A stretch of DNA of 42,686 nt, taken from Escherichia phage PGT2. Below, one piece after another: positions 1 to 42,686 of the stretch. The translations under genes were made by a program, and so were the position numbers. The DNA is taken from the sequence record NC_047890.1; one strand, 5' to 3'. Every line of letters starts with the position of its first letter. Positions within the stretch are counted from its first letter, which is position 1. A model generated the notes under the pieces. The model saw only the letters and a list, made by a program, of their open reading frames with translations, did no database searches and had not been told where the DNA came from.

Positions 1-260
1 TCCAACACAAATGAGGTCGCGTTTCCCCCGTAGGCCCGGCCTTCTGGATGGCTAAATGGCTGGATGGATGGATGGCTGGACGGCTAGACGTTTAGACGGC
101 TAAATGGCCAAATGACCGTAAAAAGGGCCGTGGGCACTGATAGGGTCAATCGGGCTGTAAGCCACGCCAACCGGGGTTTCCGCACATTACTTTATAAGAG
201 AGCTTGTAAGGTGTCTGGCGGCGATCCGTCTACGACGGGAGAAGGAAAGAGACGTGGGGT
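1..260. repeat. Left direct terminal repeat (DTR), 260 bp
   Basis: Bases 1-260 are identical to 42427-42686, checked block by block. The repeat runs to the window edge, so 260 bp is a minimum length. Confidence 0.9.
48..118. repeat. Array of short imperfect ~8-bp repeats (CTRRAYGG-like) inside the terminal repeat
   Basis: ggctaaatgg ctggatgg atggatgg ctggacgg ctagacgt ttagacgg ctaaatgg ccaaatga read directly. Resembles the short repeat series in T7 terminal repeats. Confidence 0.6.
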
Positions 261-5964: not shown

Positions 5965-6270
5965 ATGAGCGAACGTATCTGCGTACCATATGCACGTAAA
6001 GGCAATCCAGACGTACACACTATCGTAATCCCAGCAGGCTTTATCAGTCTGGAAGACCTCTTGTCCCATGTCGGCTTCCAGCTTGGCATGGGCGACCAGT
6101 TGCTGGATGAGATTAACGGCCTTCTGGCACAGGAATACACAGCAGGCAAGCGCGCGCTGGCTGAAGTCCTGAGCCGGGCTACTCATAGCGCGACGTACAC
6201 TCCCAACATGGAGGATGCGCACCGTATCCTGACGGCTGAAGAATTGGGGTATGCAAATGACCGTGAGTAA
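5965..6270 (+). CDS. Hypothetical early protein (101 aa)
   Basis: ATG preceded by acgaggc-type SD. Confidence 0.55.
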   Translation: MSERICVPYARKGNPDVHTIVIPAGFISLEDLLSHVGFQLGMGDQLLDEINGLLAQEYTAGKRALAEVLSRATHSATYTPNMEDAHRILTAEELGYANDRE

Positions 6271-6361
6271 AGCCATTGGCTGGCTGATAGCCTACGCAGT
6301 GTTTTCTATAGTCGCCAACATCATCGGCGGCATCTCGTTAATTTTGTTCCTGCTCAAGTGA
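6251..6361 (+). CDS. Small hydrophobic peptide (36 aa), possible membrane protein
   Basis: Translation MQMTVSKAIGWLIAYAVFSIVANIIGGISLILFLLK; overlaps the end of ORF 5965 in another frame; weak RBS. Confidence 0.3.
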   Translation: MQMTVSKAIGWLIAYAVFSIVANIIGGISLILFLLK

Positions 6362-6369
6362 GGTAATTA

Positions 6370-6645
6370 ATGTCTGAGTTCCAGAAGAAACTTAAACAGG
6401 CGTTTTACGCTAACTTCTCCCGGCAGCGGACCGATAAAGAGGGTGTTATCTCTTACCGGACCTATTTTGGCACGTCCCTACCAACCACGCGGTACGTAGA
6501 GACGCTGGTGGATGAGAAGAAGTCTGCGACGGAAGGCGTGGACACAGTGGCGATTGTTGATCAGATTCGTGTGCACCATTTCAACGAAATCATGGGATAC
6601 ATCGACAACGAACTGCGCAAGGTTCTCAAATTGCAGGAGGGATAA
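6370..6645 (+). CDS. Hypothetical protein (91 aa)
   Basis: ATG preceded by SD gtgaggtaa; immediately upstream of primase. Confidence 0.55.
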   Translation: MSEFQKKLKQAFYANFSRQRTDKEGVISYRTYFGTSLPTTRYVETLVDEKKSATEGVDTVAIVDQIRVHHFNEIMGYIDNELRKVLKLQEG

Positions 6646-7466
6646 TGAACTACCGTGATTCCGATTGGTATTTGGCTATAAAAGACCATCCGGTCGGTAC
6701 TCGGCTGCGTATGGCACACGATGGCTGCTCCACGAGTGAGGCACTCATCGTCACAAAACAGGATTCCGGGGTAAGCGCGTATTGCTTCCGTTGCAAATGG
6801 AACGGATTCGTTGGCGCGCCTCCTGAATCGTTGGCCCAAAAGTTAGAGCGTAAATCTCGTGAGAAGCTCGCCAGCAAGGTGATGAAGGATAGTAAGGCGT
6901 TACCATCCCCCAAGTGCGAAAACATCGCTGAGTGGCCGCTAGAAGCGCGGATTTGGCTCTATAAAGCTGGACTTAATAACCATGACATATCTGAAGCTGG
7001 TATTTATTATCATGGAGGCAGTAATCGTGTGGTCATCCCTATATTTGATGGTGACGCGCTGGTGTATTGGCAAGCCCGTGGATTTGACCCTGAAGCGCCT
7101 AAGTACCTCAATCCGTCGGTGGTGGACCGGACTGCTCTTGTCGCCAACTGGTACGGCTCTGAAAGATGCCTTGTTCTTACAGAGGACTGGCTATCAGGCT
7201 ACCGGGTACATCGGGCCACAGGCTTCCAAGTCTATGCCCTCCTTGGGACAACACTCACGGACGCAATCGCGGCCCAAATCGTCTACAACCGTGTACCAGT
7301 GGCCATATGGCTCGACCCGGATTCGGCGGGCCAGACTGCGGCGCGGAAGATTATTGCTAAACTCAGTGCGCTGAACCACCCGGTTAAAAACATCGTCACT
7401 GAGCGGGATCCTAAACTTTACAGTGACGCAGAAATCCGGGAGGTGTTACGATGCGACCCACAGTGA
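6645..7466 (+). CDS. DNA primase (zinc-binding and TOPRIM domains)
   Basis: Cys cluster HDGC...CFRC near the N-terminus; TOPRIM-like LVLTEDWLSGYR and IWLDPDSAGQTAARK; strong SD aggaggg. Confidence 0.8.
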   Translation: MNYRDSDWYLAIKDHPVGTRLRMAHDGCSTSEALIVTKQDSGVSAYCFRCKWNGFVGAPPESLAQKLERKSREKLASKVMKDSKALPSPKCENIAEWPLEARIWLYKAGLNNHDISEAGIYYHGGSNRVVIPIFDGDALVYWQARGFDPEAPKYLNPSVVDRTALVANWYGSERCLVLTEDWLSGYRVHRATGFQVYALLGTTLTDAIAAQIVYNRVPVAIWLDPDSAGQTAARKIIAKLSALNHPVKNIVTERDPKLYSDAEIREVLRCDPQ

Positions 7467-7852
7467 TGGAGAGTTGTTGCATCTGCCATACGCAGAAAGG
7501 TCCCTATAATCAGGCAGGCCGTGCAACATACAAGGGCCGGATGGTGGGGTTACACAGGCTTATCTTCTTTAAGGAGTTCGGTTACTGGCCGGAAGTTGTC
7601 CTGCACCTCTGCGACAACCAGCGCTGTATAAATCCTGAACATCTGGTAGGAGGTACACAGGCAGACAACATCCGAGATGCAGTAGAGAAAGGGCGGTGGG
7701 TAAGAAATTTCCCTAATAAGTTATCCGCAGACACTGTTCGGGCCATACGAAGCGCGGTAGGCACAAACAAGCAGATAGCACAACAGTTTAATATAGACCC
7801 GGCGCATGTAAGCCGTATCAAAAATGGTATTGCTTATAAGGAGGTCACATAA
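7451..7852 (+). CDS. HNH homing endonuclease
   Basis: HNH core LHRLIF...HLCDNQRCINPEHL...N with a C-terminal helix-turn-helix-like segment; sits between primase and helicase. Confidence 0.7.
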   Translation: MRPTVMESCCICHTQKGPYNQAGRATYKGRMVGLHRLIFFKEFGYWPEVVLHLCDNQRCINPEHLVGGTQADNIRDAVEKGRWVRNFPNKLSADTVRAIRSAVGTNKQIAQQFNIDPAHVSRIKNGIAYKEVT

Positions 7853-7923
7853 GCCTCGATAGTGAATTTCTCCGTAGTATCCGACACCGCTCTAAGTTCA
7901 AAGAGCGTATAGGAACTACCCCC

Positions 7924-9132
7924 TTGTATTTGTTCGAAGAGAAGACACGCGACCTGATAAAGCTCATGTCACGTTATTTTAAGACTTACAAGGCGGCAGA
8001 CGTCATCCTAAAAGATGACTTCATAACTTGGCTGAATGAACTAAAGGGAGACAAACTAACAGAGTCTGACAGCATACTGTTTCAGGCACTCATGGAAGAT
8101 TTTGAGTATGACCTGTCTGCCGCCGCCGAGCAGTTCCTGACCGAGCGTTTGCAGGAATCCGATTTAGTCTACAAAACCGCAGACCTGATTGAGAAATGGT
8201 CGAACGGTGATGAGATTGAAATCATTGAGCAAATGAAAATCGTCACCGACAAAGCGGCATTTGGCCGTGCTGACCGGGACGGTATTAAAGTAGTCACAGA
8301 GTCGATTGAGGAGATTCTGGAGCACGCCGGGAGCAAGTGGGGATTCGAGTGGTCATTGCCAATATTAGCTAAGGCCATGCGACCCGCACAGCCGGGAGAC
8401 ATGATTCTCATAGCTGCCCGACCGGACCAAGGGAAGACTACATTCATCGGTAACATTGTCCGGCCTTGGCTGGCACAACTGGATGAAATATTCCCCGATG
8501 AAGAACGCTGCATTCTCTGGCTCAATAACGAGGGACCGGGTACTCGTATCAAGCTCCGAAATTACCAATCGGCCCTCGGCCTGACTATCCCAGAAGTGGA
8601 CCAGATGGCTCATACTCGTGGGATGCTGGACGAGGAATACAGGAAGGTGGTAGCCAATGCCGACCGCCTTATTATCCTCGACGTCCACGGCAAGAACACG
8701 GCACAGATTGAGCGGAAGATTGCTGAATTGAAGCCGGGTGTCATTGTCTGGGACATGCTGGATAAGGTGAAGTATGTTACAGAAGACGCTTTTAGGAATA
8801 CACGTACGGATGAGTATCTTGAAGGCTTGTACTCGTGGGTACGAGAATCCGGTGTCATATATGACTGCGTTAACGTCGTATCAACCCAGTTATCCGGTGA
8901 TGCTGAGAACATGCAGTATCCGCACCTCGGAATGCTCAAAGACTCAAAAACGGGCAAACAGGGTACGGCTGATGCCATCATTACGTTCGGGTCGGTTGAC
9001 ACTTACCCCCGTACACGATTCATTGGTCTTACTAAAAATAAGCTCAATATGGGCCGCGCTACGAGTCGCCTAGGCGAAGTCGTATTCGACGGTGCCCGTG
9101 GCTTAATCACTATGCCAGAGGTAGAGAAATGA
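7924..9132 (+). CDS. Replicative DNA helicase (DnaB/T7 gp4 helicase-domain type)
   Basis: Walker A ARPDQGKTT; the frame is closed upstream so the start is TTG 7924 or the internal ATG at 7966. Confidence 0.8.
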   Translation: MYLFEEKTRDLIKLMSRYFKTYKAADVILKDDFITWLNELKGDKLTESDSILFQALMEDFEYDLSAAAEQFLTERLQESDLVYKTADLIEKWSNGDEIEIIEQMKIVTDKAAFGRADRDGIKVVTESIEEILEHAGSKWGFEWSLPILAKAMRPAQPGDMILIAARPDQGKTTFIGNIVRPWLAQLDEIFPDEERCILWLNNEGPGTRIKLRNYQSALGLTIPEVDQMAHTRGMLDEEYRKVVANADRLIILDVHGKNTAQIERKIAELKPGVIVWDMLDKVKYVTEDAFRNTRTDEYLEGLYSWVRESGVIYDCVNVVSTQLSGDAENMQYPHLGMLKDSKTGKQGTADAIITFGSVDTYPRTRFIGLTKNKLNMGRATSRLGEVVFDGARGLITMPEVEK

Positions 9133-9716
9133 TTGATACAGTAGTTTTAACAGCATCCGGCCAATACGTGAATATCCTTGCACCAACCGAGGATGAGATT
9201 GACATCCACGACATTGCTCATGCACTGGCTAATATCAATCGGTTCAACGGTCACACCGCTGTACCCTACACGGTAGCAGAGCACTCATTGCGCTGTTCAG
9301 CCTTGCTTAAGGCGTGGGGATACACTCCCTCATCTCAGTTGGCTGGCCTGCTGCATGATGCTACCGAGGCGTATATCGGCGACGTGGCTACCCCACTCAA
9401 ACAACTGCTGCCAGAGTTCAGAGTCATTGAGAAGAATCTGGAAAAGGTTATTGAGAAGAAGTTCGACATTATCATTAATGACCGTCCAGAAGTCCATTAC
9501 GCAGACCTCCAGCTACTGGCATCCGAACGCAAGTACCTGATGCCGGAAACGCCTGAGTATGTTTGGGAGATTATCGACGGGATTGGCCCGACGACCTACT
9601 CCACAGTGACTGGCAACAATCCTAAGTGGGGTGGTCGGACGCATAAGGAACTGGTCGGCTGGTTCATTAAACGCTTTGAGCAACTTATCAACGAGGTTCA
9701 CAATGTTAAAAATTGA
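9129..9716 (+). CDS. HD-domain phosphohydrolase (5'-deoxynucleotidase-like)
   Basis: HD motifs NINRFNGH...EHS and LLHDATEAYIGD. Confidence 0.65.
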   Translation: MIDTVVLTASGQYVNILAPTEDEIDIHDIAHALANINRFNGHTAVPYTVAEHSLRCSALLKAWGYTPSSQLAGLLHDATEAYIGDVATPLKQLLPEFRVIEKNLEKVIEKKFDIIINDRPEVHYADLQLLASERKYLMPETPEYVWEIIDGIGPTTYSTVTGNNPKWGGRTHKELVGWFIKRFEQLINEVHNVKN

Positions 9717-9996
9717 CCTGACTATCGGCGCATTTAGGATAACCTCTGATGAACACAATTACATTCTGCACCAGTGCAAGCCTAAGACCAAGGGTAAGGA
9801 CGTAGGAACTTTACATTGGGCGGTGATCGGGTACTACAGCAGTCTGGAGCACGTCGCTGGTAATATCGCAAAGTGTGCCGCAGACGGCGTTACCGAAGGC
9901 TTCCCTATCTACCAACTCGACGACCTGAAGAAAGTAGAACGGGCTATCTCAGAGGTAGGCACGGAACTGGTTAAGGCAATACAGGAGAAAGTTTAA
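9703..9996 (+). CDS. Hypothetical protein (97 aa)
   Basis: In-frame ATG at 9703 with SD acgagg at 6-nt spacing; the ORF track starts further upstream (9631) inside the HD gene. Confidence 0.5.
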   Translation: MLKIDLTIGAFRITSDEHNYILHQCKPKTKGKDVGTLHWAVIGYYSSLEHVAGNIAKCAADGVTEGFPIYQLDDLKKVERAISEVGTELVKAIQEKV

Positions 9997-12389
9997 TGTC
10001 CTATGTAACGTTCGATTTGGAGACAACGGTCAAATCCTTGGCTAAACGCAAGGCCAGCCCGTTCCACCCGAACAATTTCATAGTGGCGATTGGTTGGAAA
10101 CGACAAAACTGCTCTGTTCAGGGTAGTTACAGTAAAACGGGCGAGCACCATCCCAATTGGTTCGAAGGTCTTTTGGCAGGTACTAAATTACTTGTCGGCC
10201 AGAATATCAAATTTGACATTCTCTATGCTATAACCCGGTCCGAATCGGCATACGCCGCTTGGATGAACTGGGTAGAGGCCGGAGGAAATGTTTGGGATTG
10301 CCAGCTTGCCGAGTATTTACTGCGAGGTCAGGAACAATCAGCCCACATGTTGTCGATGGATGAGATGGTCGAGGAGTACGGCGGGAACACGAAGGTGGAT
10401 GAAGTCAAAGCCATGTGGGAAGCAGGCTACGATACACCGGAGATTCCTGAAGACTTGCTGATGCGTTATCTCTGCGGTGAGACAAGGGATGATGGTACTC
10501 GCGTGTTCGGCGACATTGAGAACACCGAAGCAATCTTCCTCGGTCAATTGAAGAAGGCACGTAAGCGCGGCCACCTGAAGTCCATCATGCTTAACATGGG
10601 GAGCCTGTTGGCCTCCATAGAGATGGAAAAGAACGGTATGGCCGTTGACCTGAAACTGGGCTTAGAGCAAGCCGAGAAGTTGAAGGTAGCGTGCAACGAA
10701 CTCCGCGAGAAAATGCAGCAGTACCTGCCAAGTGACCTACCGTGTGAGTTTAACTGGGGTTCCGGGCACCACTTATCGGCCCTTATCTTCGGCGGCGCGA
10801 TTAAGTACAAGCAGAAAGCCGAGATTCTGGATGACGAAGGCAACAACGTTTACCCACAGATTAAGGCCGTAGGCTACGAGACAGTAACCGGGGACTTCGT
10901 GGTGCCGGGCCACGGTATCTCTGAAGAGCGTTTTCAGGAGATGGTTGAGGCCGGGAACATTGCCACGTACAAGGCCGGGAAGAAGAAGGGCCAGTTCCGG
11001 TCCAAGCAGGTTAACGTTGATGACCTGTCCCGTCCTAAGACGAAGATAATGGAGTTCCGGTACAACATGCCGGGGTTCACGGAGCCGGACCCGAAGTGGG
11101 AGACGAAGCACGAAGGCGTTTACGCCACTAATGCGGACGTCATTGAGGAATTAGGAACACGCGACGTACCGTTCCTGAAAGACCTCACCAAGCTCAACAA
11201 AATGGATAAAGACCTGACGACATACTATATCTGCGAAGACCCTAAGAAAGAGGGGATGTTCAAAGGTATGTTGACGCTGGTCGGCGATGACGGCATTATC
11301 CACGGCAGCATTAACCACACCTCCACAGTGACCGGGCGATTCTCTGCGAGCAACCCTAACCTCCAGAACATCCCCCGTGCGGACACTTCTGAAGTTAAGA
11401 AGCTGTTCATCTCGCGCTTCGGCGACGACGGCCAGATTATTCAGTCTGACTTCTCGTCTCTGGAGATTTACGTTCAGGCATTACTCACAGGTGACAAGCA
11501 ATTGCTGGCAGACCTGAAGAAAGGTCTGGACATGCACTGCGTTCGCGTCGCCAGTAAATTCGGGGTGCCCTATGAGGAAGCAGTCAAACGTTGTAAGAAG
11601 GATGTTGACGCGCCGGACTACAAGCTATGGAAGTCTCGCAGGACTGGATGTAAGGAATTTTCATTCCAACGAGCATACGGCGCTGGAGCGGCAGCAGTGG
11701 CGAACTCTACGGGGATGTCTATTGAAGACGTGCAGGACCTTATCAAGTTAGAGGACGAACGTTACCCGGAGATTGAACCATTCTATGCAAGAGTTACAGC
11801 AGCAATTAACGAAAGCCGAGTACCAACAAGTCTGTATGTACATCATCCAGAGATACGGGGACTGTCTGTCTGCATCGGCAAAGGATTTTATAGAACGCCT
11901 GATGGGAAGAAATACACTTACCGAGAGTACCCTGCTCCGGCTGGTTTTATCAAACGCGGGGGTGCACACGCCTCCTTCTCGCCTCCTGAAATTAAGAACT
12001 ACATTGTGCAGGGTACAGGTGGCGAGTGGGCGAAAGCTGCGATGTGGCTTGCAGTCCGCACATTCTATCGTTTCAACAACTTCGGAGGAAAGGCGCTCTT
12101 AGTGAATATGGTGCACGATGCGCAATACGTCGATGCTCACAATGACGTGCTGTTCGAAGCCTGCGTAGCGTTACATGCTGCAATGGAAGCGGCCAGCGAG
12201 TTCATGGAGTACCGATTCGATTGGCAGGTCGATGCCCCGGTCCCTTCAGAAACAACCTTTGGCCCAGCGATGTACTACGAGACTGGTGCCGACACCCTGC
12301 CGGGATTCGCCGAAGCAGTGCGTGCTGAACGTCTCAAAATCCGTAAGCTGTACATGAACGACTACCAACCATCATTCGAGGGTAATTAA
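9996..12389 (+). CDS. Family A DNA polymerase with 3'-5' exonuclease domain
   Basis: Exo I motif FDLETT; polymerase motif A DFSSLEIYV, motif B RTGCKEFSFQRAYG, motif C VHDA. Confidence 0.9.
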   Translation: MSYVTFDLETTVKSLAKRKASPFHPNNFIVAIGWKRQNCSVQGSYSKTGEHHPNWFEGLLAGTKLLVGQNIKFDILYAITRSESAYAAWMNWVEAGGNVWDCQLAEYLLRGQEQSAHMLSMDEMVEEYGGNTKVDEVKAMWEAGYDTPEIPEDLLMRYLCGETRDDGTRVFGDIENTEAIFLGQLKKARKRGHLKSIMLNMGSLLASIEMEKNGMAVDLKLGLEQAEKLKVACNELREKMQQYLPSDLPCEFNWGSGHHLSALIFGGAIKYKQKAEILDDEGNNVYPQIKAVGYETVTGDFVVPGHGISEERFQEMVEAGNIATYKAGKKKGQFRSKQVNVDDLSRPKTKIMEFRYNMPGFTEPDPKWETKHEGVYATNADVIEELGTRDVPFLKDLTKLNKMDKDLTTYYICEDPKKEGMFKGMLTLVGDDGIIHGSINHTSTVTGRFSASNPNLQNIPRADTSEVKKLFISRFGDDGQIIQSDFSSLEIYVQALLTGDKQLLADLKKGLDMHCVRVASKFGVPYEEAVKRCKKDVDAPDYKLWKSRRTGCKEFSFQRAYGAGAAAVANSTGMSIEDVQDLIKLEDERYPEIEPFYARVTAAINESRVPTSLYVHHPEIRGLSVCIGKGFYRTPDGKKYTYREYPAPAGFIKRGGAHASFSPPEIKNYIVQGTGGEWAKAAMWLAVRTFYRFNNFGGKALLVNMVHDAQYVDAHNDVLFEACVALHAAMEAASEFMEYRFDWQVDAPVPSETTFGPAMYYETGADTLPGFAEAVRAERLKIRKLYMNDYQPSFEGN

Positions 12390-12391
12390 TA

Positions 12392-13330
12392 ATGGCTAAG
12401 CAATTTTCCGTACTGAAGAAGAAAGAACTGCTCGTAGACCAGACCAAAGCAAGCACTGGTGGTGACTATACGCCGCCAGCGGAAGGTCTGGCCCGTGCCC
12501 GACTCGTCGCCTACGTCGAGGTCGGCAAGCATGAGAAGGTCAGTAAGCAATACGGCACCAAGGTCCAGAGCATGGTGCATCTGACCTTCGAACTGTCCGG
12601 TCCGAAGTGGGAGCCGAAGAAGCTGGATGATGGTACTCTGATTCCGCAGCGTATCACCCTGAAAGAGAACCTGTCCACTAACACCAAGGCGCGATTCTAC
12701 AAGCTGTTCCTGAAGCTCCGCGATGGTCGTGAGGACATTACTCACTTCGCCGAAATGCTGGGTGAAGCCTGCCTCATCCGTATCAAGCACCGTGAGTACG
12801 AGGTGGATGCTGGCGGTAAGAAAGAGAAGCGCGTTGCGGTCGATGTGTACTCTCCAGACAGTGGTTGGTCAATCACTCCTCCGTACATCCTGAAAGATAT
12901 TATGGATGAGAACGACGAACCGACTGGCGAGCAAGAGAAGAAGCACGTCACCGTCTCCGACCCGGTTAGTGACCTCCGCCTGTTCATCTGGGATTGCGCG
13001 GACAAAGAGCAGTGGGACAGCCTGTACATCGAGCCGGGTGACGGCGACCGCAGCAAGAACGTGTTCCAAGAACTGATTGTCAACGCGAAGAACTTTATCG
13101 GTTCCCCGGCTGAAGCAGCGGCACACGGCTCTGAATCTCTGGAGGCCATTCTGAAGGGTGGTAAGGGTTCAACCGAGCCTGCCACTGACGATGACGATGA
13201 TGATGGCTCAGAAGGCGTTGTAGAGGATAAGAGCAGCAAGAAAGCTACCTCTGTTGTGAAGAAGGTCGTTAAGAAGACGGTAGAGGCTGAAAAGCCTGCT
13301 GACGAAGATGACTTAGGGGATATTGACTAA
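12392..13330 (+). CDS. Hypothetical protein with acidic C-terminal tail; possible ssDNA-binding protein (T7 gp2.5-like)
   Basis: C-terminus DDDDDDGSEG...ADEDDLGDID; position between polymerase and exonuclease. No sequence-level match verified. Confidence 0.35.
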   Translation: MAKQFSVLKKKELLVDQTKASTGGDYTPPAEGLARARLVAYVEVGKHEKVSKQYGTKVQSMVHLTFELSGPKWEPKKLDDGTLIPQRITLKENLSTNTKARFYKLFLKLRDGREDITHFAEMLGEACLIRIKHREYEVDAGGKKEKRVAVDVYSPDSGWSITPPYILKDIMDENDEPTGEQEKKHVTVSDPVSDLRLFIWDCADKEQWDSLYIEPGDGDRSKNVFQELIVNAKNFIGSPAEAAAHGSESLEAILKGGKGSTEPATDDDDDDGSEGVVEDKSSKKATSVVKKVVKKTVEAEKPADEDDLGDID

Positions 13331-14782: not shown

Positions 14783-15772
14783 ATGCCAAAGACTAATCTC
14801 ATTGCACTATTCACCAAGGAACAGCACCAGAACATCCTCGGCAAGCACCCCGACAACACGGCTGCTGCCAAGGCGTACAACGAACTGCTGGGCTGGAATA
14901 GTCCGGTAGTCTACCGCCAAGTGGTGGCGTACTGGCGCAAGATTTATATCGACCACGGTGGTAAGAAAGGCGAGGCTATTCGTGAAGAGAAACAAGCTGT
15001 TAAGCTGGTTCAGCCATCACCAAGTGACGATATTGGTAACACTGACGTCCCTGACGTGTGTCGCCGTATCCTTGTGGTTGGTGATTTACATGCTCCTTAT
15101 ACTCATCCCGACGCTATTGCTTTCCTTCGCCATGTCCGAGACAGTTATGTTCCTGACATGGTTGTTCAGGTAGGCGATGAGACGGACGGCCACGCAATCA
15201 GCTTCCACGACTCGGACCCGAATCTGGATAGCGCCGGGGTCGAATTAGAGAAAGCCAAAGCCGTACTGGAGCAATTACATGACCTGTTCCCGAACCTTCT
15301 GGTATGTGACTCCAATCACGGCAGTCTTGTGTATCGCCGCGCAAAGGCTCACGGTCTACCAGTGCAATTTATCAAGAAGTACCGTGATATTCTTTTCCCT
15401 GAGCACGGTGCTAAGAAGTGGTCATGGGCTGACGCATGGGTACTCAATACCCCGCTTGGCCAAGTTCGATTCCAACATCAAGTGTCGGGCGACTTCATGC
15501 TTAACGCCAGCCATGAGAGAACCTCGCTTGTCTTGGGTCACGAGCATGGTCGCTTTGAAGTGCAGTACGCAGCAAGCTCAACAGCTTTGTACTTTGGTGC
15601 ATACGCTGGGTGTCTGATTGACCGTAAGTCTCTGGCCTTTGCCTACGGCAAGTTGCACCGCAAGAAACCAATCCTCGGCGTGATGGTAATCACCGATGGT
15701 TGTCCGCAGTTAATCCCTATGCTGATGGATGAAAACGGGAGGTGGTGTGCGCGAGATAAAACCAAAGGTTGA
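14783..15772 (+). CDS. Calcineurin-like metallophosphoesterase
   Basis: Motifs VVGDLHAPY, VQVGDETDGH, CDSNHG, GHEH; in-frame ATG 14783 with upstream SD (ORF track start 14666 overlaps the endo VII gene). Confidence 0.65.
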   Translation: MPKTNLIALFTKEQHQNILGKHPDNTAAAKAYNELLGWNSPVVYRQVVAYWRKIYIDHGGKKGEAIREEKQAVKLVQPSPSDDIGNTDVPDVCRRILVVGDLHAPYTHPDAIAFLRHVRDSYVPDMVVQVGDETDGHAISFHDSDPNLDSAGVELEKAKAVLEQLHDLFPNLLVCDSNHGSLVYRRAKAHGLPVQFIKKYRDILFPEHGAKKWSWADAWVLNTPLGQVRFQHQVSGDFMLNASHERTSLVLGHEHGRFEVQYAASSTALYFGAYAGCLIDRKSLAFAYGKLHRKKPILGVMVITDGCPQLIPMLMDENGRWCARDKTKG

Positions 15773-15794
15773 TACAGGGAAGAGATTCCGGGGT

Positions 15795-16292
15795 ATGGTG
15801 GTGTACACTTGGGACTGCCCTTACTGTGGTAGAGAGTTTGAGGCTATACGGACTAAGCTCTTCAATACAAGTAAGCGAGGTGGTGCAGGGCATTGTGGGT
15901 GTCAGACTAAGGTTCGACAGTCACAAAGAAATGCAGGGCGTACACCGCCTAATAAGCTGGACGATTTGACAGCCTCCGCTAACAAGGTGTGGCAGTACAG
16001 TACCAAACTAGGCCGGAGCATTACTAAAGAGGATGCCAAAGCCTTAGTAAGTGCAAACTGTTACTACTGCGGGGCAGCGCCCAGCACCTACCGAGAGATT
16101 GGTGGAGGTCGCTGGTCGCGCAAGTCCGAAATACCCACAAACGGAATCGACAGAAAGGATTCATCTGTAGGTTATCACGTACATAATTGTGTACCTTGCT
16201 GCCCTACGTGCAACTACATGAAGTCCGATATGCACCACGACGACTTCTTGGAGTTGTGTAGTAAAATAGCCGACCGTTGGGCCGGTCGCTAA
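15795..16292 (+). CDS. HNH endonuclease (second free-standing copy)
   Basis: N-terminal CPYCG zinc motif and C-terminal HVHNCVPCCPTCNYMKSD HNH motif; start could also be ATG 15729. Confidence 0.65.
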   Translation: MVVYTWDCPYCGREFEAIRTKLFNTSKRGGAGHCGCQTKVRQSQRNAGRTPPNKLDDLTASANKVWQYSTKLGRSITKEDAKALVSANCYYCGAAPSTYREIGGGRWSRKSEIPTNGIDRKDSSVGYHVHNCVPCCPTCNYMKSDMHHDDFLELCSKIADRWAGR

Positions 16293-16332: not shown

Positions 16333-17052
16333 ATGTTGTTAATGCTCTCTGGCGCGATTGGCGCTGGCAAAGATACCTTCGGTGAGTTCCTGTACGACTC
16401 ATTCGACAAGTTCGGCTACAGCGTGGAAGTGGTGAAGTTTGCCGACCCCATTCGTGAAGCTGCATTTAAGCTCGGATTCAATCCAGATGACCGGGCAACC
16501 AAGGAAGTCCCTGCAATACGCCATTATAAACTCTCAGAACTTGATGAGGCCATTTTTACTACTCATACCTGCCTGACACCTTACGAGCGCCGAATGGTCG
16601 CTGTACGAGTTCACCAGAGATTAATTAACATTCGCAAGGAGAAACATGATGGCATCTACAAGCCTGTCGTCAGTACGCGAGAATTTATGCAGGTCGTCGG
16701 TGGGACTGTACGAGACGCTAAAGAAGATTATTACATCCAGCACATGCTTCTCAATACACCAGAATCACGCGTTAACATCTGCACTGATACTCGGTTCATC
16801 AACGAGCAGCGAATTGGGGATTATTCGGTCTACGTTGAGCGCCCAAACAACCCGTTGGCGGTTCATACCCGCGACGCGTCGGAAGCAGCACAAGCGTTGC
16901 TCCGGGGGGCGGCGAAGAAAGTAATCCTGAACAACAGCACTCTGGATAATCTGGCTGAAGAAGCCGATTACGTGGCTACAACATTAATTTCAAAAGGGTA
17001 TTGTGATGACGCAGTTAAAGACGCAGGCGGAACTGGAATCTTTATCGAGTGA
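16333..17052 (+). CDS. P-loop deoxynucleoside monophosphate kinase-like protein
   Basis: N-terminal P-loop MLLMLSGAIGAGKDT resembles T4 dNMP kinase MKLIFLSGVKRSGKDT; strong SD tgagga. Confidence 0.6.
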   Translation: MLLMLSGAIGAGKDTFGEFLYDSFDKFGYSVEVVKFADPIREAAFKLGFNPDDRATKEVPAIRHYKLSELDEAIFTTHTCLTPYERRMVAVRVHQRLINIRKEKHDGIYKPVVSTREFMQVVGGTVRDAKEDYYIQHMLLNTPESRVNICTDTRFINEQRIGDYSVYVERPNNPLAVHTRDASEAAQALLRGAAKKVILNNSTLDNLAEEADYVATTLISKGYCDDAVKDAGGTGIFIE

Positions 17053-18976
17053 GCGCGGTCTTGCCAAGCTGATGGCCGAGTGTGAGCAGGCTGAATCAGC
17101 GGGGCGTGCATCCGGCGCGTTTTATGCCAAGCAGTTGTTAGAGCGTTTTGTTAACCGTATGGCCGAACGTATTGACCACGAGATGGCGAATCCGGGTGCT
17201 GGCCGCGCGAAAGCGCATAAGAAACTGGTCGCTGTGTTTGACTCCAAAGTCACTGCGTTTATTTCTGTATCAACCACATTGAACATGCTGATGGTCAACG
17301 AGCAGACACCGGGCACCAGCCTTAGTCGCGCCCTCGGCAATGCAATGTATAACGAACTGTTCTGTACCACATTCGACGATGCCAACCCGGACCTGTTTCA
17401 CACCATCTGCAAGGACTTGGATAAGCGCCAGAGCAAATCCAGCCGCCACCGCATGACGGTACTGAAGAATCAGGCAGCGAAGAAGGGTATCGCGTGGGAG
17501 AACTGGACCGTCACCGAAATCCTTCAGGTCGGTGAGTGGTGTCTGGATAATCTGGTGTCAGTTGGTCTGTGCGAAACGCATACCGAGGTGTCTCGCGGTA
17601 AGGCGAAGATGTACGTGGAACTGTCCGACGAGGCGCTGGGAATGATTGAGGATACCAAACGTCTGGTGTCCTTCTTCCGGCCCCAGCGCCTCCCGTTCGT
17701 AGAGAAGCCTCTGGACTGGACCGGGATTGTTGGTGGTGGCTACCATACTGCTCGTATGCAGAGTACGATGCCTCGTTGCATCAAAGCCAGCCCGACCCAG
17801 ATGGATGTACTCATAAAGCACCGTGACGACTACAAGGATACGGTGGTGGCGTGCATTAACACTCTGCAATCGGTAGAGTGGCGTATCAACAAGCGTATTC
17901 TGGAAGTGCAGCAGCAGATGTTCCGAGGCTTTGAGCCGAAGAACAAGCCTGATGCTCTGGAGTGTCATAGCAAGGACGTTGAAGAGTGGACCGAGGCAGA
18001 TAAATCTCTACACAGCCACTGGAAGAAGGAAATGGCTCGCTGGTACACAGAGCAGCGTGCAGAGCGTTATGCCGCTTCACGACATGCCTACACGTTGTCA
18101 GTGGCACGAGAGTTCGCTGACTACCCGCGTATCTGGTTCATGTACTTCGCCGACTGGCGCGGGCGTTATTACCCGGCCACCACAGGCATCTCGCCGCAGG
18201 GGACCGACATCTCTAAATCCATGCTGGAGTTCGCCAATGGCAAGCCCATCTCTGACCCAATCGCAGAACAGTTCTTCTTCCTCCTTGGTTCAACTAAATT
18301 CGGATTCGACAAAGGCTCTATATCCGAACGAGTTCAGTGGGTTCACAAGAATCACGACCTTATCTTGGCGTGTGCCGACGAACCGCTACTACATACTGAT
18401 TTCTGGTACAGAGAAGCAGATAAGAAGACCCGCTACCAATTTCTGGCATGGTGTTTTGAATATGCTGAATACACGCGGTTCCCAGCTGGATTTGTATCAC
18501 GACTTCCGGTGTCTCTTGATGGCACATGTAATGGCCTACAACACTATTCGGCGATGCTACGAGATTCGGTTGGTGCTAAGGCTACCAACCTGTTACCTGC
18601 TAACCGACCAAACGATATTTACGCGCAAGTCGCAGGCGTTGTCACCAACCTTCTTGAAAGCATGTCACCTGCCGACTTCCCGGCACTGACACGCGAATCT
18701 AAGCCTCTCAGCGTCTATGAGGTGGACTTCTTCCGTAGGGCATGGTTACACCACGGTATCAGCCGTAGCCTCGTTAAACGGTGCGTTATGACGTTACCTT
18801 ACGGGTCCAAGAAGTTCAGCATGGGTCGCTTCATCAAAGGCGACTACATGATGGACATTCACCCGGAAGAGTTCGACACCGACGACTACACCGACGCAAA
18901 GTATGTTCCCGCCAGACCAGAGTTCGGTGACCTCGATTTAGAGCAGGTCAATCACTCCGAATACTTCTTCCTGTAG
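17006..18976 (+). CDS. T7-like single-subunit RNA polymerase, apparently lacking the C-terminal ~190 aa (motif C and C-terminus)
   Basis: PLDWTGIVGGGY, DWRGRYY...PQGTD, FLAWCFEYA, LDGTCNGLQHYSAMLRD (motif A) and VMTLPYGSKKF (motif B) align with T7 RNAP; the ORF stops about 50 residues after motif B. Confidence 0.85.
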   Translation: MTQLKTQAELESLSSERGLAKLMAECEQAESAGRASGAFYAKQLLERFVNRMAERIDHEMANPGAGRAKAHKKLVAVFDSKVTAFISVSTTLNMLMVNEQTPGTSLSRALGNAMYNELFCTTFDDANPDLFHTICKDLDKRQSKSSRHRMTVLKNQAAKKGIAWENWTVTEILQVGEWCLDNLVSVGLCETHTEVSRGKAKMYVELSDEALGMIEDTKRLVSFFRPQRLPFVEKPLDWTGIVGGGYHTARMQSTMPRCIKASPTQMDVLIKHRDDYKDTVVACINTLQSVEWRINKRILEVQQQMFRGFEPKNKPDALECHSKDVEEWTEADKSLHSHWKKEMARWYTEQRAERYAASRHAYTLSVAREFADYPRIWFMYFADWRGRYYPATTGISPQGTDISKSMLEFANGKPISDPIAEQFFFLLGSTKFGFDKGSISERVQWVHKNHDLILACADEPLLHTDFWYREADKKTRYQFLAWCFEYAEYTRFPAGFVSRLPVSLDGTCNGLQHYSAMLRDSVGAKATNLLPANRPNDIYAQVAGVVTNLLESMSPADFPALTRESKPLSVYEVDFFRRAWLHHGISRSLVKRCVMTLPYGSKKFSMGRFIKGDYMMDIHPEEFDTDDYTDAKYVPARPEFGDLDLEQVNHSEYFFL

Positions 18977-42426: not shown

Positions 42427-42686
42427 TCCAACACAAATGAGGTCGCGTTTCCCCCGTAGGCCCGGCCTTCTGGATGGCTAAATGGCTGGATGGATGGATG
42501 GCTGGACGGCTAGACGTTTAGACGGCTAAATGGCCAAATGACCGTAAAAAGGGCCGTGGGCACTGATAGGGTCAATCGGGCTGTAAGCCACGCCAACCGG
42601 GGTTTCCGCACATTACTTTATAAGAGAGCTTGTAAGGTGTCTGGCGGCGATCCGTCTACGACGGGAGAAGGAAAGAGACGTGGGGT
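42427..42686. repeat. Right direct terminal repeat (DTR), 260 bp
   Basis: Exact copy of 1-260. Confidence 0.9.

What the first reader, a model, noticed from the sequence alone, without database searches (positions are those of the whole stretch)
9129..9716. HD-domain hydrolase between the helicase and DNA polymerase genes
The H...HD...D signature matches 5'-deoxynucleotidase-type HD enzymes. It could hydrolyse dNMPs or signalling nucleotides and is separate from the kinase/phosphoesterase pair.
Basis: partly seen in the sequence, partly recalled or inferred. Interest (0 to 1): 0.35.

Follow-up and report, generated by a model that had tools for sequence, protein, structure and literature searches.

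The report
Phage YfdR-like HD nucleotide phosphohydrolase gene
This is a real and intact gene for a small metal-dependent HD phosphohydrolase of the YfdR/YfbR 5'-deoxynucleotidase type, sitting in the replication gene block of a phiKT/PGT2-type coliphage; it is already annotated as such in public records and is ordinary, although no phage member has had its substrate or role tested.

Summary
The ORF at 9129..9716 (+, 195 aa) is real. Its ATG overlaps the helicase stop codon (ATGA) and follows a GAGG ribosome-binding site.

The window appears to be the whole genome of Escherichia phage PGT2: 42,686 bp, 260-bp terminal repeat, about 95% identical to phiKT. The protein is 99.5% identical to phiKT gp03, which is already annotated 'deoxyribonucleoside 5' monophosphate phosphatase'.

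- **Family:** it passes the Pfam YfbR-like cut-off and hits phrog_318 at 1.5e-66.
- **Catalytic residues:** every metal and catalytic residue (R38, H52, H76, D77, E80, D85, D126) is invariant in 109 homologues.
- **Closest studied relative:** the E. coli prophage protein YfdR (35% identity, full length), a weak dNMPase that also binds DnaA.
- **T5 Dmp:** this phage enzyme, which has the activity named in the product label, is an unrelated HAD-type protein.

Best reading: a two-metal HD phosphohydrolase acting on deoxynucleotide 5'-phosphates, co-expressed with the replisome. The substrate is inferred, not shown. Cyclic-nucleotide or alarmone hydrolysis is not supported. This is already known and of low interest.

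The parts
9129..9716 (+). CDS of the 195-aa YfdR/Atu1052-type HD phosphohydrolase (stop codon included)
9118..9132 (+). Translation start region: GAGG Shine-Dalgarno at 9118-9121, then ATG 9129-9131 overlapping the helicase stop TGA 9130-9132 (ATGA), which suggests translational coupling
   Evidence: Read directly from the sequence.
9141..9185 (+). N-terminal beta-hairpin segment (residues 5-19) with the subfamily motif [IV]-L-T-x-[ST]-G-x-x-[FV]...P. It is shared with YfdR and Atu1052 and absent from YfbR.
   Evidence: Strands at residues 5-7 and 13-15 in the model. T8, G11 and P19 are kept in more than 90% of sequences. Aligns to YfdR and Atu1052.
9240..9245 (+). R38-F39, counterpart of YfbR R18-W19 and DatZ R19-W20 (phosphate contact and base stacking)
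   Evidence: R38 is invariant and position 39 is F or Y in all 109 sequences. The mapping rests on motif spacing and on the DatZ paper PMC8065100, so it is an inference.
9282..9284 (+). H52, first metal-A ligand (the 'EHS' motif)
   Evidence: Invariant. Aligns to YfbR H33.
9354..9383 (+). H76-D77-A-T-E80-A-Y-I-G-D85: the HD dyad (metal A) and the E/D pair (metal B, catalytic)
   Evidence: Invariant H, D, A, E, A and D. Aligns to YfbR H68, D69, E72 and D77. Residue roles are taken from PMC8065100.
9504..9506 (+). D126, last metal-A ligand. It is followed by the subfamily-specific L-A-[TS]-E133 motif.
   Evidence: D126 and E133 are invariant.
7966..9132 (+). Upstream DnaB-like replicative helicase gene (the mechanical ORF starts at TTG 7924; the phiKT-equivalent start is 7966)
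   Evidence: Pfam DnaB_C and AAA_25. phiKT gp02 annotation. Equal-length alignment to the phiKT gene.
9703..9996 (+). 97-aa ORF overlapping the HD gene's 3' end by 14 nt (phrog_154 'replication initiation protein'); it lies between the HD gene and the polymerase gene
9996..12389 (+). Family A DNA polymerase gene
   Evidence: phiKT gp05 annotation. The syntenic genes in relatives carry PF00476.

Best explanation
The gene encodes a catalytically competent, divalent-metal-dependent HD phosphohydrolase of the YfdR/Atu1052 branch of the YfbR-like (COG1896, PF12917) small nucleotide phosphohydrolases.

Proposed mechanism:
- H52, H76, D77 and D126 hold metal A.
- E80 and D85 hold metal B and a water molecule.
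- R38 contacts the 5'-phosphate and F39 stacks on the base.
- The enzyme removes the 5'-phosphate from 2'-deoxynucleoside 5'-monophosphates, giving deoxynucleoside plus Pi.

It is made together with the helicase, with which it is translationally coupled, and with the rest of the replication operon. In that setting it trims or sanitises the deoxynucleotide pool that the phage builds from host DNA breakdown through its exonuclease, endonuclease VII and dNMP kinase.

Shown here: the ORF, the fold, conservation of the active site, family placement and conserved synteny. Inferred: the substrate (dNMPs), the metal, and the physiological role.
For: Family membership:
- Pfam YfbR-like 31.7 bits against a cut-off of 25.9.
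- phrog_318 at 1.5e-66.
- PDB sequence hits to Atu1052 (6.6e-14) and YfbR (0.017).
- 35% identity over the full length (E 2e-32) to E. coli YfdR, which RefSeq names 5'-deoxynucleotidase.

Active site: R38, H52, H76, D77, E80, D85, E101 and D126 are invariant, and K91 is kept in 108 of 109 homologues. These map one-to-one on the catalytic residues described for YfbR and DatZ.

Genomic context:
- The order helicase-HD-polymerase is kept in metagenomic relatives whose HD protein is only 63% and 50% identical.
- A YfdR-like HD domain is fused to a dATP/dGTP diphosphohydrolase N-terminal domain on two independent contigs.
- That same domain is encoded in the same prophage operon as another family member.
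- Both observations link the family to deoxynucleotide breakdown.
Against: - No member from a lytic phage has been assayed.
- YfdR, the closest studied relative, is reported to bind nucleotides much more weakly than YfbR, and its function was called elusive (PMC4776307).
- The YfbR equivalog model is far from met: 18.3 bits against 122.
- About 60 residues have no counterpart in YfbR: the N-terminal hairpin, the C-terminal helices, and the invariant E133 and W146. They could define another substrate.
- A general dNMP phosphatase would work against the phage's own dNMP kinase.
- Position 123 is H here, where the family and YfbR/DatZ have K.
Confidence: 0.55

Rival explanations
1. It is a deoxynucleoside tri- or diphosphate hydrolase like DatZ (dATP to dA) or OxsA. 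It would lower the level of one canonical or unwanted dNTP rather than act on dNMPs.
Against: YfbR, a monophosphatase, carries the same lysines, so they do not discriminate between the two activities. The DatZ gamma-phosphate lysine (K116) is H123 here. No purZ-type or base-modification gene is annotated in phiKT that would call for removing a canonical dNTP. Sequence similarity is to YfdR, for which dNMPase activity was reported.
Confidence: 0.15
2. Its main role is protein binding, as for its homologue YfdR. It would bind host DnaA domain I (around Phe46), compete with DiaA and DnaB, and shut off initiation at oriC so that precursors and replication factors go to the phage. Catalysis would be secondary.
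For: [quoted passage not shown] The window protein is 35% identical to YfdR over its full length. It sits inside the replication module, coupled to the helicase gene.
Against: - The YfdR surface that binds DnaA is unknown, so its conservation cannot be checked.
- The YfdR effect in vivo needed co-overexpression of YfdQ plus YfdS or YfdT, and the authors themselves allow that it may be an overexpression artefact.
- No YfdQ-type (DUF2303) hit appeared among the neighbouring ORFs that were scanned.
- The full catalytic set is invariant across 109 homologues from very different hosts, which indicates that selection acts on enzyme activity.
Confidence: 0.1
3. It degrades signalling nucleotides (cyclic oligonucleotides, c-di-GMP, cGAMP, (p)ppGpp or (p)ppApp), for example to disarm CBASS, type III CRISPR or the stringent response.
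Against: These folds score far below the YfbR-like tier. There is no GYP motif and no Rel/SpoT-type HDxxED motif; the sequence reads HDATEA. No Pfam family of that kind is hit, and there is no PADLOC hit.
Confidence: 0.04

Closest known systems
Escherichia phage phiKT gp03 (YP_007006586 / UniProt H6VU98), annotated 'deoxyribonucleoside 5' monophosphate phosphatase'
   Same: 194 of 195 residues identical. Same position after the helicase and before the small phrog_154 ORF and the DNA polymerase. Predicted structures superpose at TM 0.96.
   Different: One substitution, G153D. The function of phiKT gp03 has never been tested; its name is an annotation by similarity.
E. coli K-12 YfdR (b2361, cryptic prophage CPS-53) and its SfV orf30 homologue
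   Same: 35% identity over the whole length (E 2e-32), including the N-terminal hairpin motif and all catalytic residues. Both are phage-borne early genes. RefSeq names YfdR a 5'-deoxynucleotidase.
   Different: YfdR lies in a temperate-phage early operon, yfdQRST. Here the gene is in a lytic podophage replication module, and the neighbouring ORFs that were scanned gave no YfdQ (DUF2303) or YfdS (DUF551) hit. DnaA binding by YfdR (PMC4776307) is untested for this protein.
Atu1052 of Agrobacterium tumefaciens (PDB 2gz4, structural-genomics protein of unknown function)
   Different: 26% identity. No biochemical data are available, and no paper in the searchable library mentions it.
E. coli YfbR (5'-deoxynucleotidase / dCMP phosphohydrolase; PDB 2paq, 2par, 2pau)
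   Different: Only about 125 residues align, at about 22% identity. YfbR lacks the N-terminal hairpin and the L-A-T-E motif. The NCBIfam equivalog scores 18.3 against a cut-off of 122, so this protein is not an orthologue.
Cyanophage S-2L DatZ (dATP triphosphohydrolase; PDB 6zpa)
   Different: 20% identity. DatZ works together with PurZ in Z-genome phages, and no purZ is annotated in phiKT. DatZ K116 corresponds to H123 here.
Phage T5 Dmp (deoxynucleoside-5'-monophosphatase)
   Same: Dmp has the enzymatic activity that the product name of phrog_318 describes, and it acts on dNMPs released from degraded host DNA (T5 record annotation).
   Different: No sequence relationship: BLASTP E = 4 and no HD Pfam hit. 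Dmp carries a DxDGT HAD-type motif and belongs to phrog_415. The two are analogous at most, not homologous.

Membership tests
HD superfamily (PF01966) | H...HD...D metal-binding signature | tested here: met
   H52, H76-D77 and D126 are present and invariant in 109 homologues.
HD superfamily (PF01966) | Pfam HD model at or above its gathering score | tested here: inconclusive
   21.3 bits against a cut-off of 22 (E 3.4e-4), so just below. The more specific PF12917 model passes.
HD superfamily (PF01966) | All-alpha HD fold | tested here: met
YfbR-like small nucleotide phosphohydrolases (PF12917 / COG1896) | Pfam model above its gathering score | tested here: met
   31.7 bits against 25.9, E 1.5e-7, residues 32-128.
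YfbR-like small nucleotide phosphohydrolases (PF12917 / COG1896) | Catalytic and substrate residues of YfbR: R18, W19, H33, H68, D69, E72, D77, D137 | tested here: met
   The counterparts are R38, F39 (W to F), H52, H76, D77, E80, D85 and D126. All are invariant except position 39, which is F or Y. The R38/F39 mapping rests on motif spacing.
YfbR-like small nucleotide phosphohydrolases (PF12917 / COG1896) | Metal-dependent hydrolysis of 2'-deoxynucleoside 5'-monophosphates | not testable with these tools
   Needs an enzyme assay.
YfbR orthologues (NCBIfam NF003009 equivalog, 5'-deoxynucleotidase) | Score at or above the curated equivalog cut-off | tested here: not met
   18.3 bits against 122. 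The protein is not filed as a YfbR orthologue.
YfdR/Atu1052 branch (phrog_318) | Full-length similarity to YfdR or Atu1052, including the N-terminal T-x-S-G...P hairpin and the A-D-x-x-x-L-A-T-E motif | tested here: met
YfdR/Atu1052 branch (phrog_318) | Binding to DnaA domain I, as reported for YfdR | not testable with these tools
   The binding surface on YfdR is not known (PMC4776307).
T5 Dmp-type deoxynucleoside-5'-monophosphatase | Homology to T5 Dmp (HAD-type DxDGT phosphatase) | tested here: not met
   BLASTP E = 4. Different PHROG family, 415. Dmp has a DLDGT motif and no HD hit.
DatZ-type dATP triphosphohydrolase | Two-metal site plus phosphate-binding R19, K81 and K116; co-occurrence with purZ | tested here: inconclusive
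   The metal site, R and first K are kept, while K116 corresponds to H123. No purZ is annotated in phiKT, and the window's other ORFs were not all scanned.
HD-GYP / cyclic-nucleotide phosphodiesterases and Rel/SpoT-type alarmone hydrolases | GYP motif or HDxxED motif, and close fold match | tested here: not met

The most novel reading that the evidence does not exclude
The enzyme may not be a bulk dNMP phosphatase. It could be a selective eraser of host-derived modified deoxynucleotides, for example m6-dAMP or 5-methyl-dCMP released when the phage degrades Dam/Dcm-methylated host DNA. Removing them would deprive dNMP-sensing abortive-infection systems, such as the recently described PUA-Calcineurin-CE-HAD filament (bioRxiv 10.64898/2026.01.15.699771), of their trigger, and would keep such bases out of phage DNA. 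It might also bind DnaA as YfdR does.

Nothing here excludes this reading:
- The substrate of the YfdR/Atu1052 branch is unknown.
- YfdR handles canonical dNMPs poorly.
- Family members often sit beside DNA methyltransferase genes in phages and prophages.
- The branch has its own invariant residues, E133 and W146.

There is no direct evidence for it either.
Probability: 0.08. Interest if true: 0.6.

Novelty: already known. Interest (0 to 1): 0.13.

Why it matters
As found, it matters little. It is a catalogued phage gene family: phrog_318, PF12917, 333 phage records, and the same annotation on phiKT gp03.

Two points give it modest value.

1. The widely copied product name has no tested basis for phages. 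The name describes the activity of T5 Dmp, which is unrelated in sequence. The closest studied homologue, YfdR, is a poor dNMPase that also binds DnaA.
2. A dNMP phosphatase encoded next to a phage's own dNMP kinase and host-DNA-degrading nucleases is a small paradox. Resolving it could show how podophages curate their precursor pool, through substrate selectivity, timing, or removal of modified or danger-signal nucleotides.

Tried and rejected
- **Link to T5 Dmp as the source of the product name: rejected.** There is no similarity, and Dmp has a HAD-type DxDGT motif.
- **Defence or anti-defence family (PADLOC):** no hit.
- **An RNA element or tRNA in or near the gene:** no Rfam family reaches its gathering score and no tRNA is found in the whole window.
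- **An internal promoter or terminator:** consensus matches are at or below the number expected from shuffles.
- **Foreign origin by base composition:** GC is about 0.50 across the gene, like its neighbours and the window average of 0.516.
- **Profile-profile alignment to YfbR:** it aligned only the HD...E...D...K segment with confidence. The R38/F39 mapping therefore rests on motif spacing and the MAFFT and Pfam alignments.
- **Literature on Atu1052/2GZ4, COG1896 in phages, and phage HD deoxynucleotidases:** nothing found in the searchable library. The Zimmerman 2008 YfbR/YfdR paper could not be opened, so YfdR kinetics are cited second-hand from PMC4776307.
- **Modelling a complex with DnaA domain I: considered and not run.** The structure tool returns neither coordinates nor interface scores, so the result could not be judged.
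- **The whole-library representative search: not used.** The size of the family was not in question.

Full report
**What is there.** The + strand carries an ORF from ATG 9129 to a stop at 9714-9716, encoding 195 aa. Its ATG overlaps the stop codon of the upstream DnaB-like helicase gene (ATGA at 9129-9132), and a GAGG lies 7 nt upstream. The next gene is a 97-aa ORF at 9703..9996 (phrog_154, labelled 'replication initiation protein'). It overlaps the 3' end of the HD gene by 14 nt and is followed at once by the family A DNA polymerase gene, 9996..12389. No promoter-like or terminator-like site exceeds the shuffled expectation in 6000-13000, and GC is flat at about 0.50. The gene is thus an internal cistron of the replication operon: primase, HNH, helicase, HD, phrog_154, polymerase, phrog_862, 5'-3' exonuclease, endonuclease VII.

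**Where the window comes from.** The region 7900-12400 is 95.1% identical to Escherichia phage phiKT (Autographiviridae, Ermolevavirus). The window is 42,686 bases long and has an exact 260-bp direct terminal repeat. These are the figures published for the sister phage PGT2 (PMC5773715). I therefore take the window to be the PGT2 genome, which is an inference. The HD protein is 99.5% identical to phiKT gp03: 9 of 588 nt differ, 7 at third codon positions, with one amino-acid change, G153D. The phiKT protein is already annotated 'deoxyribonucleoside 5' monophosphate phosphatase'.

**Family and fold.**
- Pfam PF12917 (YfbR-like 5'-deoxynucleotidase) scores 31.7 bits, above its curated cut-off of 25.9. 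The generic HD model scores 21.3, just below its cut-off of 22.
- PHROG 318 matches at 1.5e-66 over residues 3-193.
- The NCBIfam YfbR equivalog is far from met, at 18.3 against 122 bits, so this is not a YfbR orthologue.
- Among solved structures the best sequence match is Atu1052 (2gz4, 6.6e-14), with YfbR at 0.017.
- An AlphaFold2 model built from a 109-sequence alignment has mean pLDDT 96.1 and pTM 0.92.
- The protein therefore belongs to a distinct YfdR/Atu1052 branch of the YfbR-like group. It shares a core of about 125 residues with that group and has its own N-terminal beta-hairpin and C-terminal helices.

**Active site.** In the 109-sequence alignment (36-92% identity to the query), R38, G41, H52, H76, D77, E80, D85, P89, E101, D126 and E133 are invariant. 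K91 is kept in 108 of 109 sequences, and position 39 is always F or Y. Alignment with YfbR and the residue roles described for DatZ, YfbR and OxsA (PMC8065100) give this mapping:

| This protein | YfbR | DatZ | Role |
|---|---|---|---|
| H52, H76, D77, D126 | H33, H68, D69, D137 | H34, H66, D67, D119 | metal A |
| E80, D85 | E72, D77 | E70, D75 | metal B, catalysis |
| R38, F39 | R18, W19 | R19, W20 | phosphate contact, base stacking |
| K91 | K83 | K81 | phosphate contact |

Position 123 is H here, where most of the family and YfbR/DatZ have K. The protein has everything needed to be an active two-metal HD phosphohydrolase. The invariance across hosts as different as Escherichia, Bacillus, Caulobacter and Cellulophaga phages indicates that selection acts on catalysis.

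**Closest characterised relative.** The query is 35% identical over its full length (E 2e-32) to E. coli K-12 YfdR, which is encoded by the cryptic prophage CPS-53 and named 5'-deoxynucleotidase in RefSeq. The SfV orf30 homologue lies in the same yfdQRST-like operon. According to Noguchi and Katayama (PMC4776307), YfdR is a structural homologue of YfbR with much lower nucleotide affinities. It also binds DnaA directly in a Phe46-dependent way and moderately inhibits DiaA-DnaA and DnaB-DnaA binding. The authors caution that the in vivo effects needed overexpression of several genes. The primary YfdR kinetics paper could not be opened.

**Origin of the product name.** The name 'deoxyribonucleoside 5' monophosphate phosphatase' describes the activity of the classical T5 enzyme Dmp. 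T5 Dmp, however, is unrelated:
- BLASTP E = 4.
- No HD Pfam hit.
- A DLDGT HAD-type motif.
- A different PHROG family, 415.

The label on phrog_318 proteins is therefore an inference from YfbR/YfdR-type similarity. It does not come from any tested phage enzyme.

**Context in relatives.** In metagenomic contigs of 45-46 kb whose HD protein is 63% and 50% identical, the order primase, helicase, HD, (small ORFs), polymerase A, phrog_862-like, exonuclease, endonuclease VII is kept. At 43% identity the context is different.

Elsewhere the family sits in early operons of temperate phages and prophages, next to a YfdQ (DUF2303) protein, DNA methyltransferases, integrases or a Toprim primase-type gene. 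Two chromosomal members that were inspected are both inside prophages.

One 330-aa protein, seen on two contigs beside an SSB gene, fuses a YfdR-like HD domain to a dATP/dGTP diphosphohydrolase N-terminal domain, PF18909. A separate PF18909 gene lies in the same prophage operon as another member. These links point to deoxynucleotide catabolism, though the number of cases is small.

**Most likely mechanism.** The protein is a metal-dependent phosphohydrolase that removes the 5'-phosphate from deoxynucleoside monophosphates. It is made with the replisome proteins and adjusts or cleans the pool generated from host DNA by the phage exonuclease and endonuclease and re-phosphorylated by the phage dNMP kinase at 16333..17052. 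Confidence is about 0.9 that it is an active YfbR-like HD phosphohydrolase. It is about 0.55 that dNMPs are the physiological substrate.

The main caveats:
- YfdR's poor activity on dNMPs.
- The branch-specific invariant residues E133 and W146.
- The apparent futility of pairing a general dNMP phosphatase with a dNMP kinase.

**Rivals.**
- **A DatZ/OxsA-like dNTP or dNDP hydrolase (0.15).** Fold scores cannot separate it from the main explanation, and YfbR shares the phosphate-binding lysines.
- **A YfdR-like DnaA binder as the main function (0.10).** This is attractive given the replication-module position, but it is untestable here and at odds with the universal conservation of the catalytic set.
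- **Hydrolysis of signalling nucleotides (0.04).** This has no positive support.

**Novelty and interest.** The gene, its family and its annotation are already public, so I rate it 'already known' and of low interest (0.13). The most novel reading still open is that the enzyme selectively destroys modified dNMPs from degraded host DNA, such as the m6-dAMP that triggers the PUA-Cal-HAD abortive-infection filament (bioRxiv 10.64898/2026.01.15.699771), and/or moonlights on DnaA. I give this about 0.08.

**Noticed in passing.**
- The phage RNA polymerase gene (17003..18976) is 657 aa, against 823 aa in phiKT. An in-frame stretch equal to phiKT residues 632-797, part of the polymerase core, is missing.
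- HNH-type endonuclease genes occupy different sites in the two phages.
- The 312-aa phrog_862 protein after the polymerase has a strongly acidic C-terminal tail.

Noticed in passing
window 1-260 and 42427-42686 (whole window): The window has an exact 260-bp direct terminal repeat and is 42,686 bp long. These are the values published for Escherichia phage PGT2 (MG201401), the sister of phiKT, so the window is very probably that complete genome.
   Followed up: yes
window 17003-18976 (junction near 18896-18898): The single-subunit RNA polymerase ORF is 657 aa, against 823 aa in phiKT. phiKT residues 1-631 and 798-823 align contiguously in one frame, so about 166 codons of the polymerase core are missing. 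Pfam RNA_pol covers profile positions 16-183 of 448 here, against 16-374 in phiKT. This is either a real in-frame deletion, which would be surprising for a phage that should depend on this enzyme, or an assembly artefact in the source record.
   Followed up: partly
window 7451-7852: An HNH endonuclease gene (Pfam HNH_3) lies between primase and helicase. phiKT has no gene annotated there. Instead phiKT carries an HNH gene (gp06) just after the DNA polymerase, which is absent from the window (polymerase stop at 12389, next ORF at 12392). This looks like homing-endonuclease turnover between the two phages.
   Followed up: partly
window 15729-16292 (and 15026-16281): An extra 187-aa ORF, similar to endonuclease VII and HNH families, lies between the metallophosphoesterase and dNMP kinase genes, which are adjacent in phiKT. 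The stretch 15026-16281 is about 83% identical at the nucleotide level to Klebsiella phages such as VLCpiA1j, which suggests a mosaic or recombinant segment.
   Followed up: partly
window 12392-13330: The 312-aa protein encoded just after the DNA polymerase (phrog_862, unknown function, no Pfam hit) ends in a very acidic tail (...DDDDDDGSEG...ADEDDLGDID). This recalls the C-terminal tail of T7 gp2.5-type single-stranded DNA-binding proteins.
   Followed up: no
L013 5001-5993 and L014 5001-5993 (protein P0022); L016 2867-3379: A natural fusion of a YfdR-like HD domain with a dATP/dGTP diphosphohydrolase N-terminal domain (PF18909) occurs next to an SSB gene on two metagenomic contigs. A stand-alone PF18909 gene shares a prophage operon with another family member. 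This is a recurrent link worth a systematic co-occurrence test.
   Followed up: partly
L010 3498-6193; L016 1750-5429: Family members in Pseudomonas phage Presto and in a Methyloversatilis prophage lie beside or near DNA methyltransferase genes (C-5 cytosine and N6-adenine types). This may simply reflect clustering of early accessory genes, or it may hint at a link with modified nucleotides.
   Followed up: no
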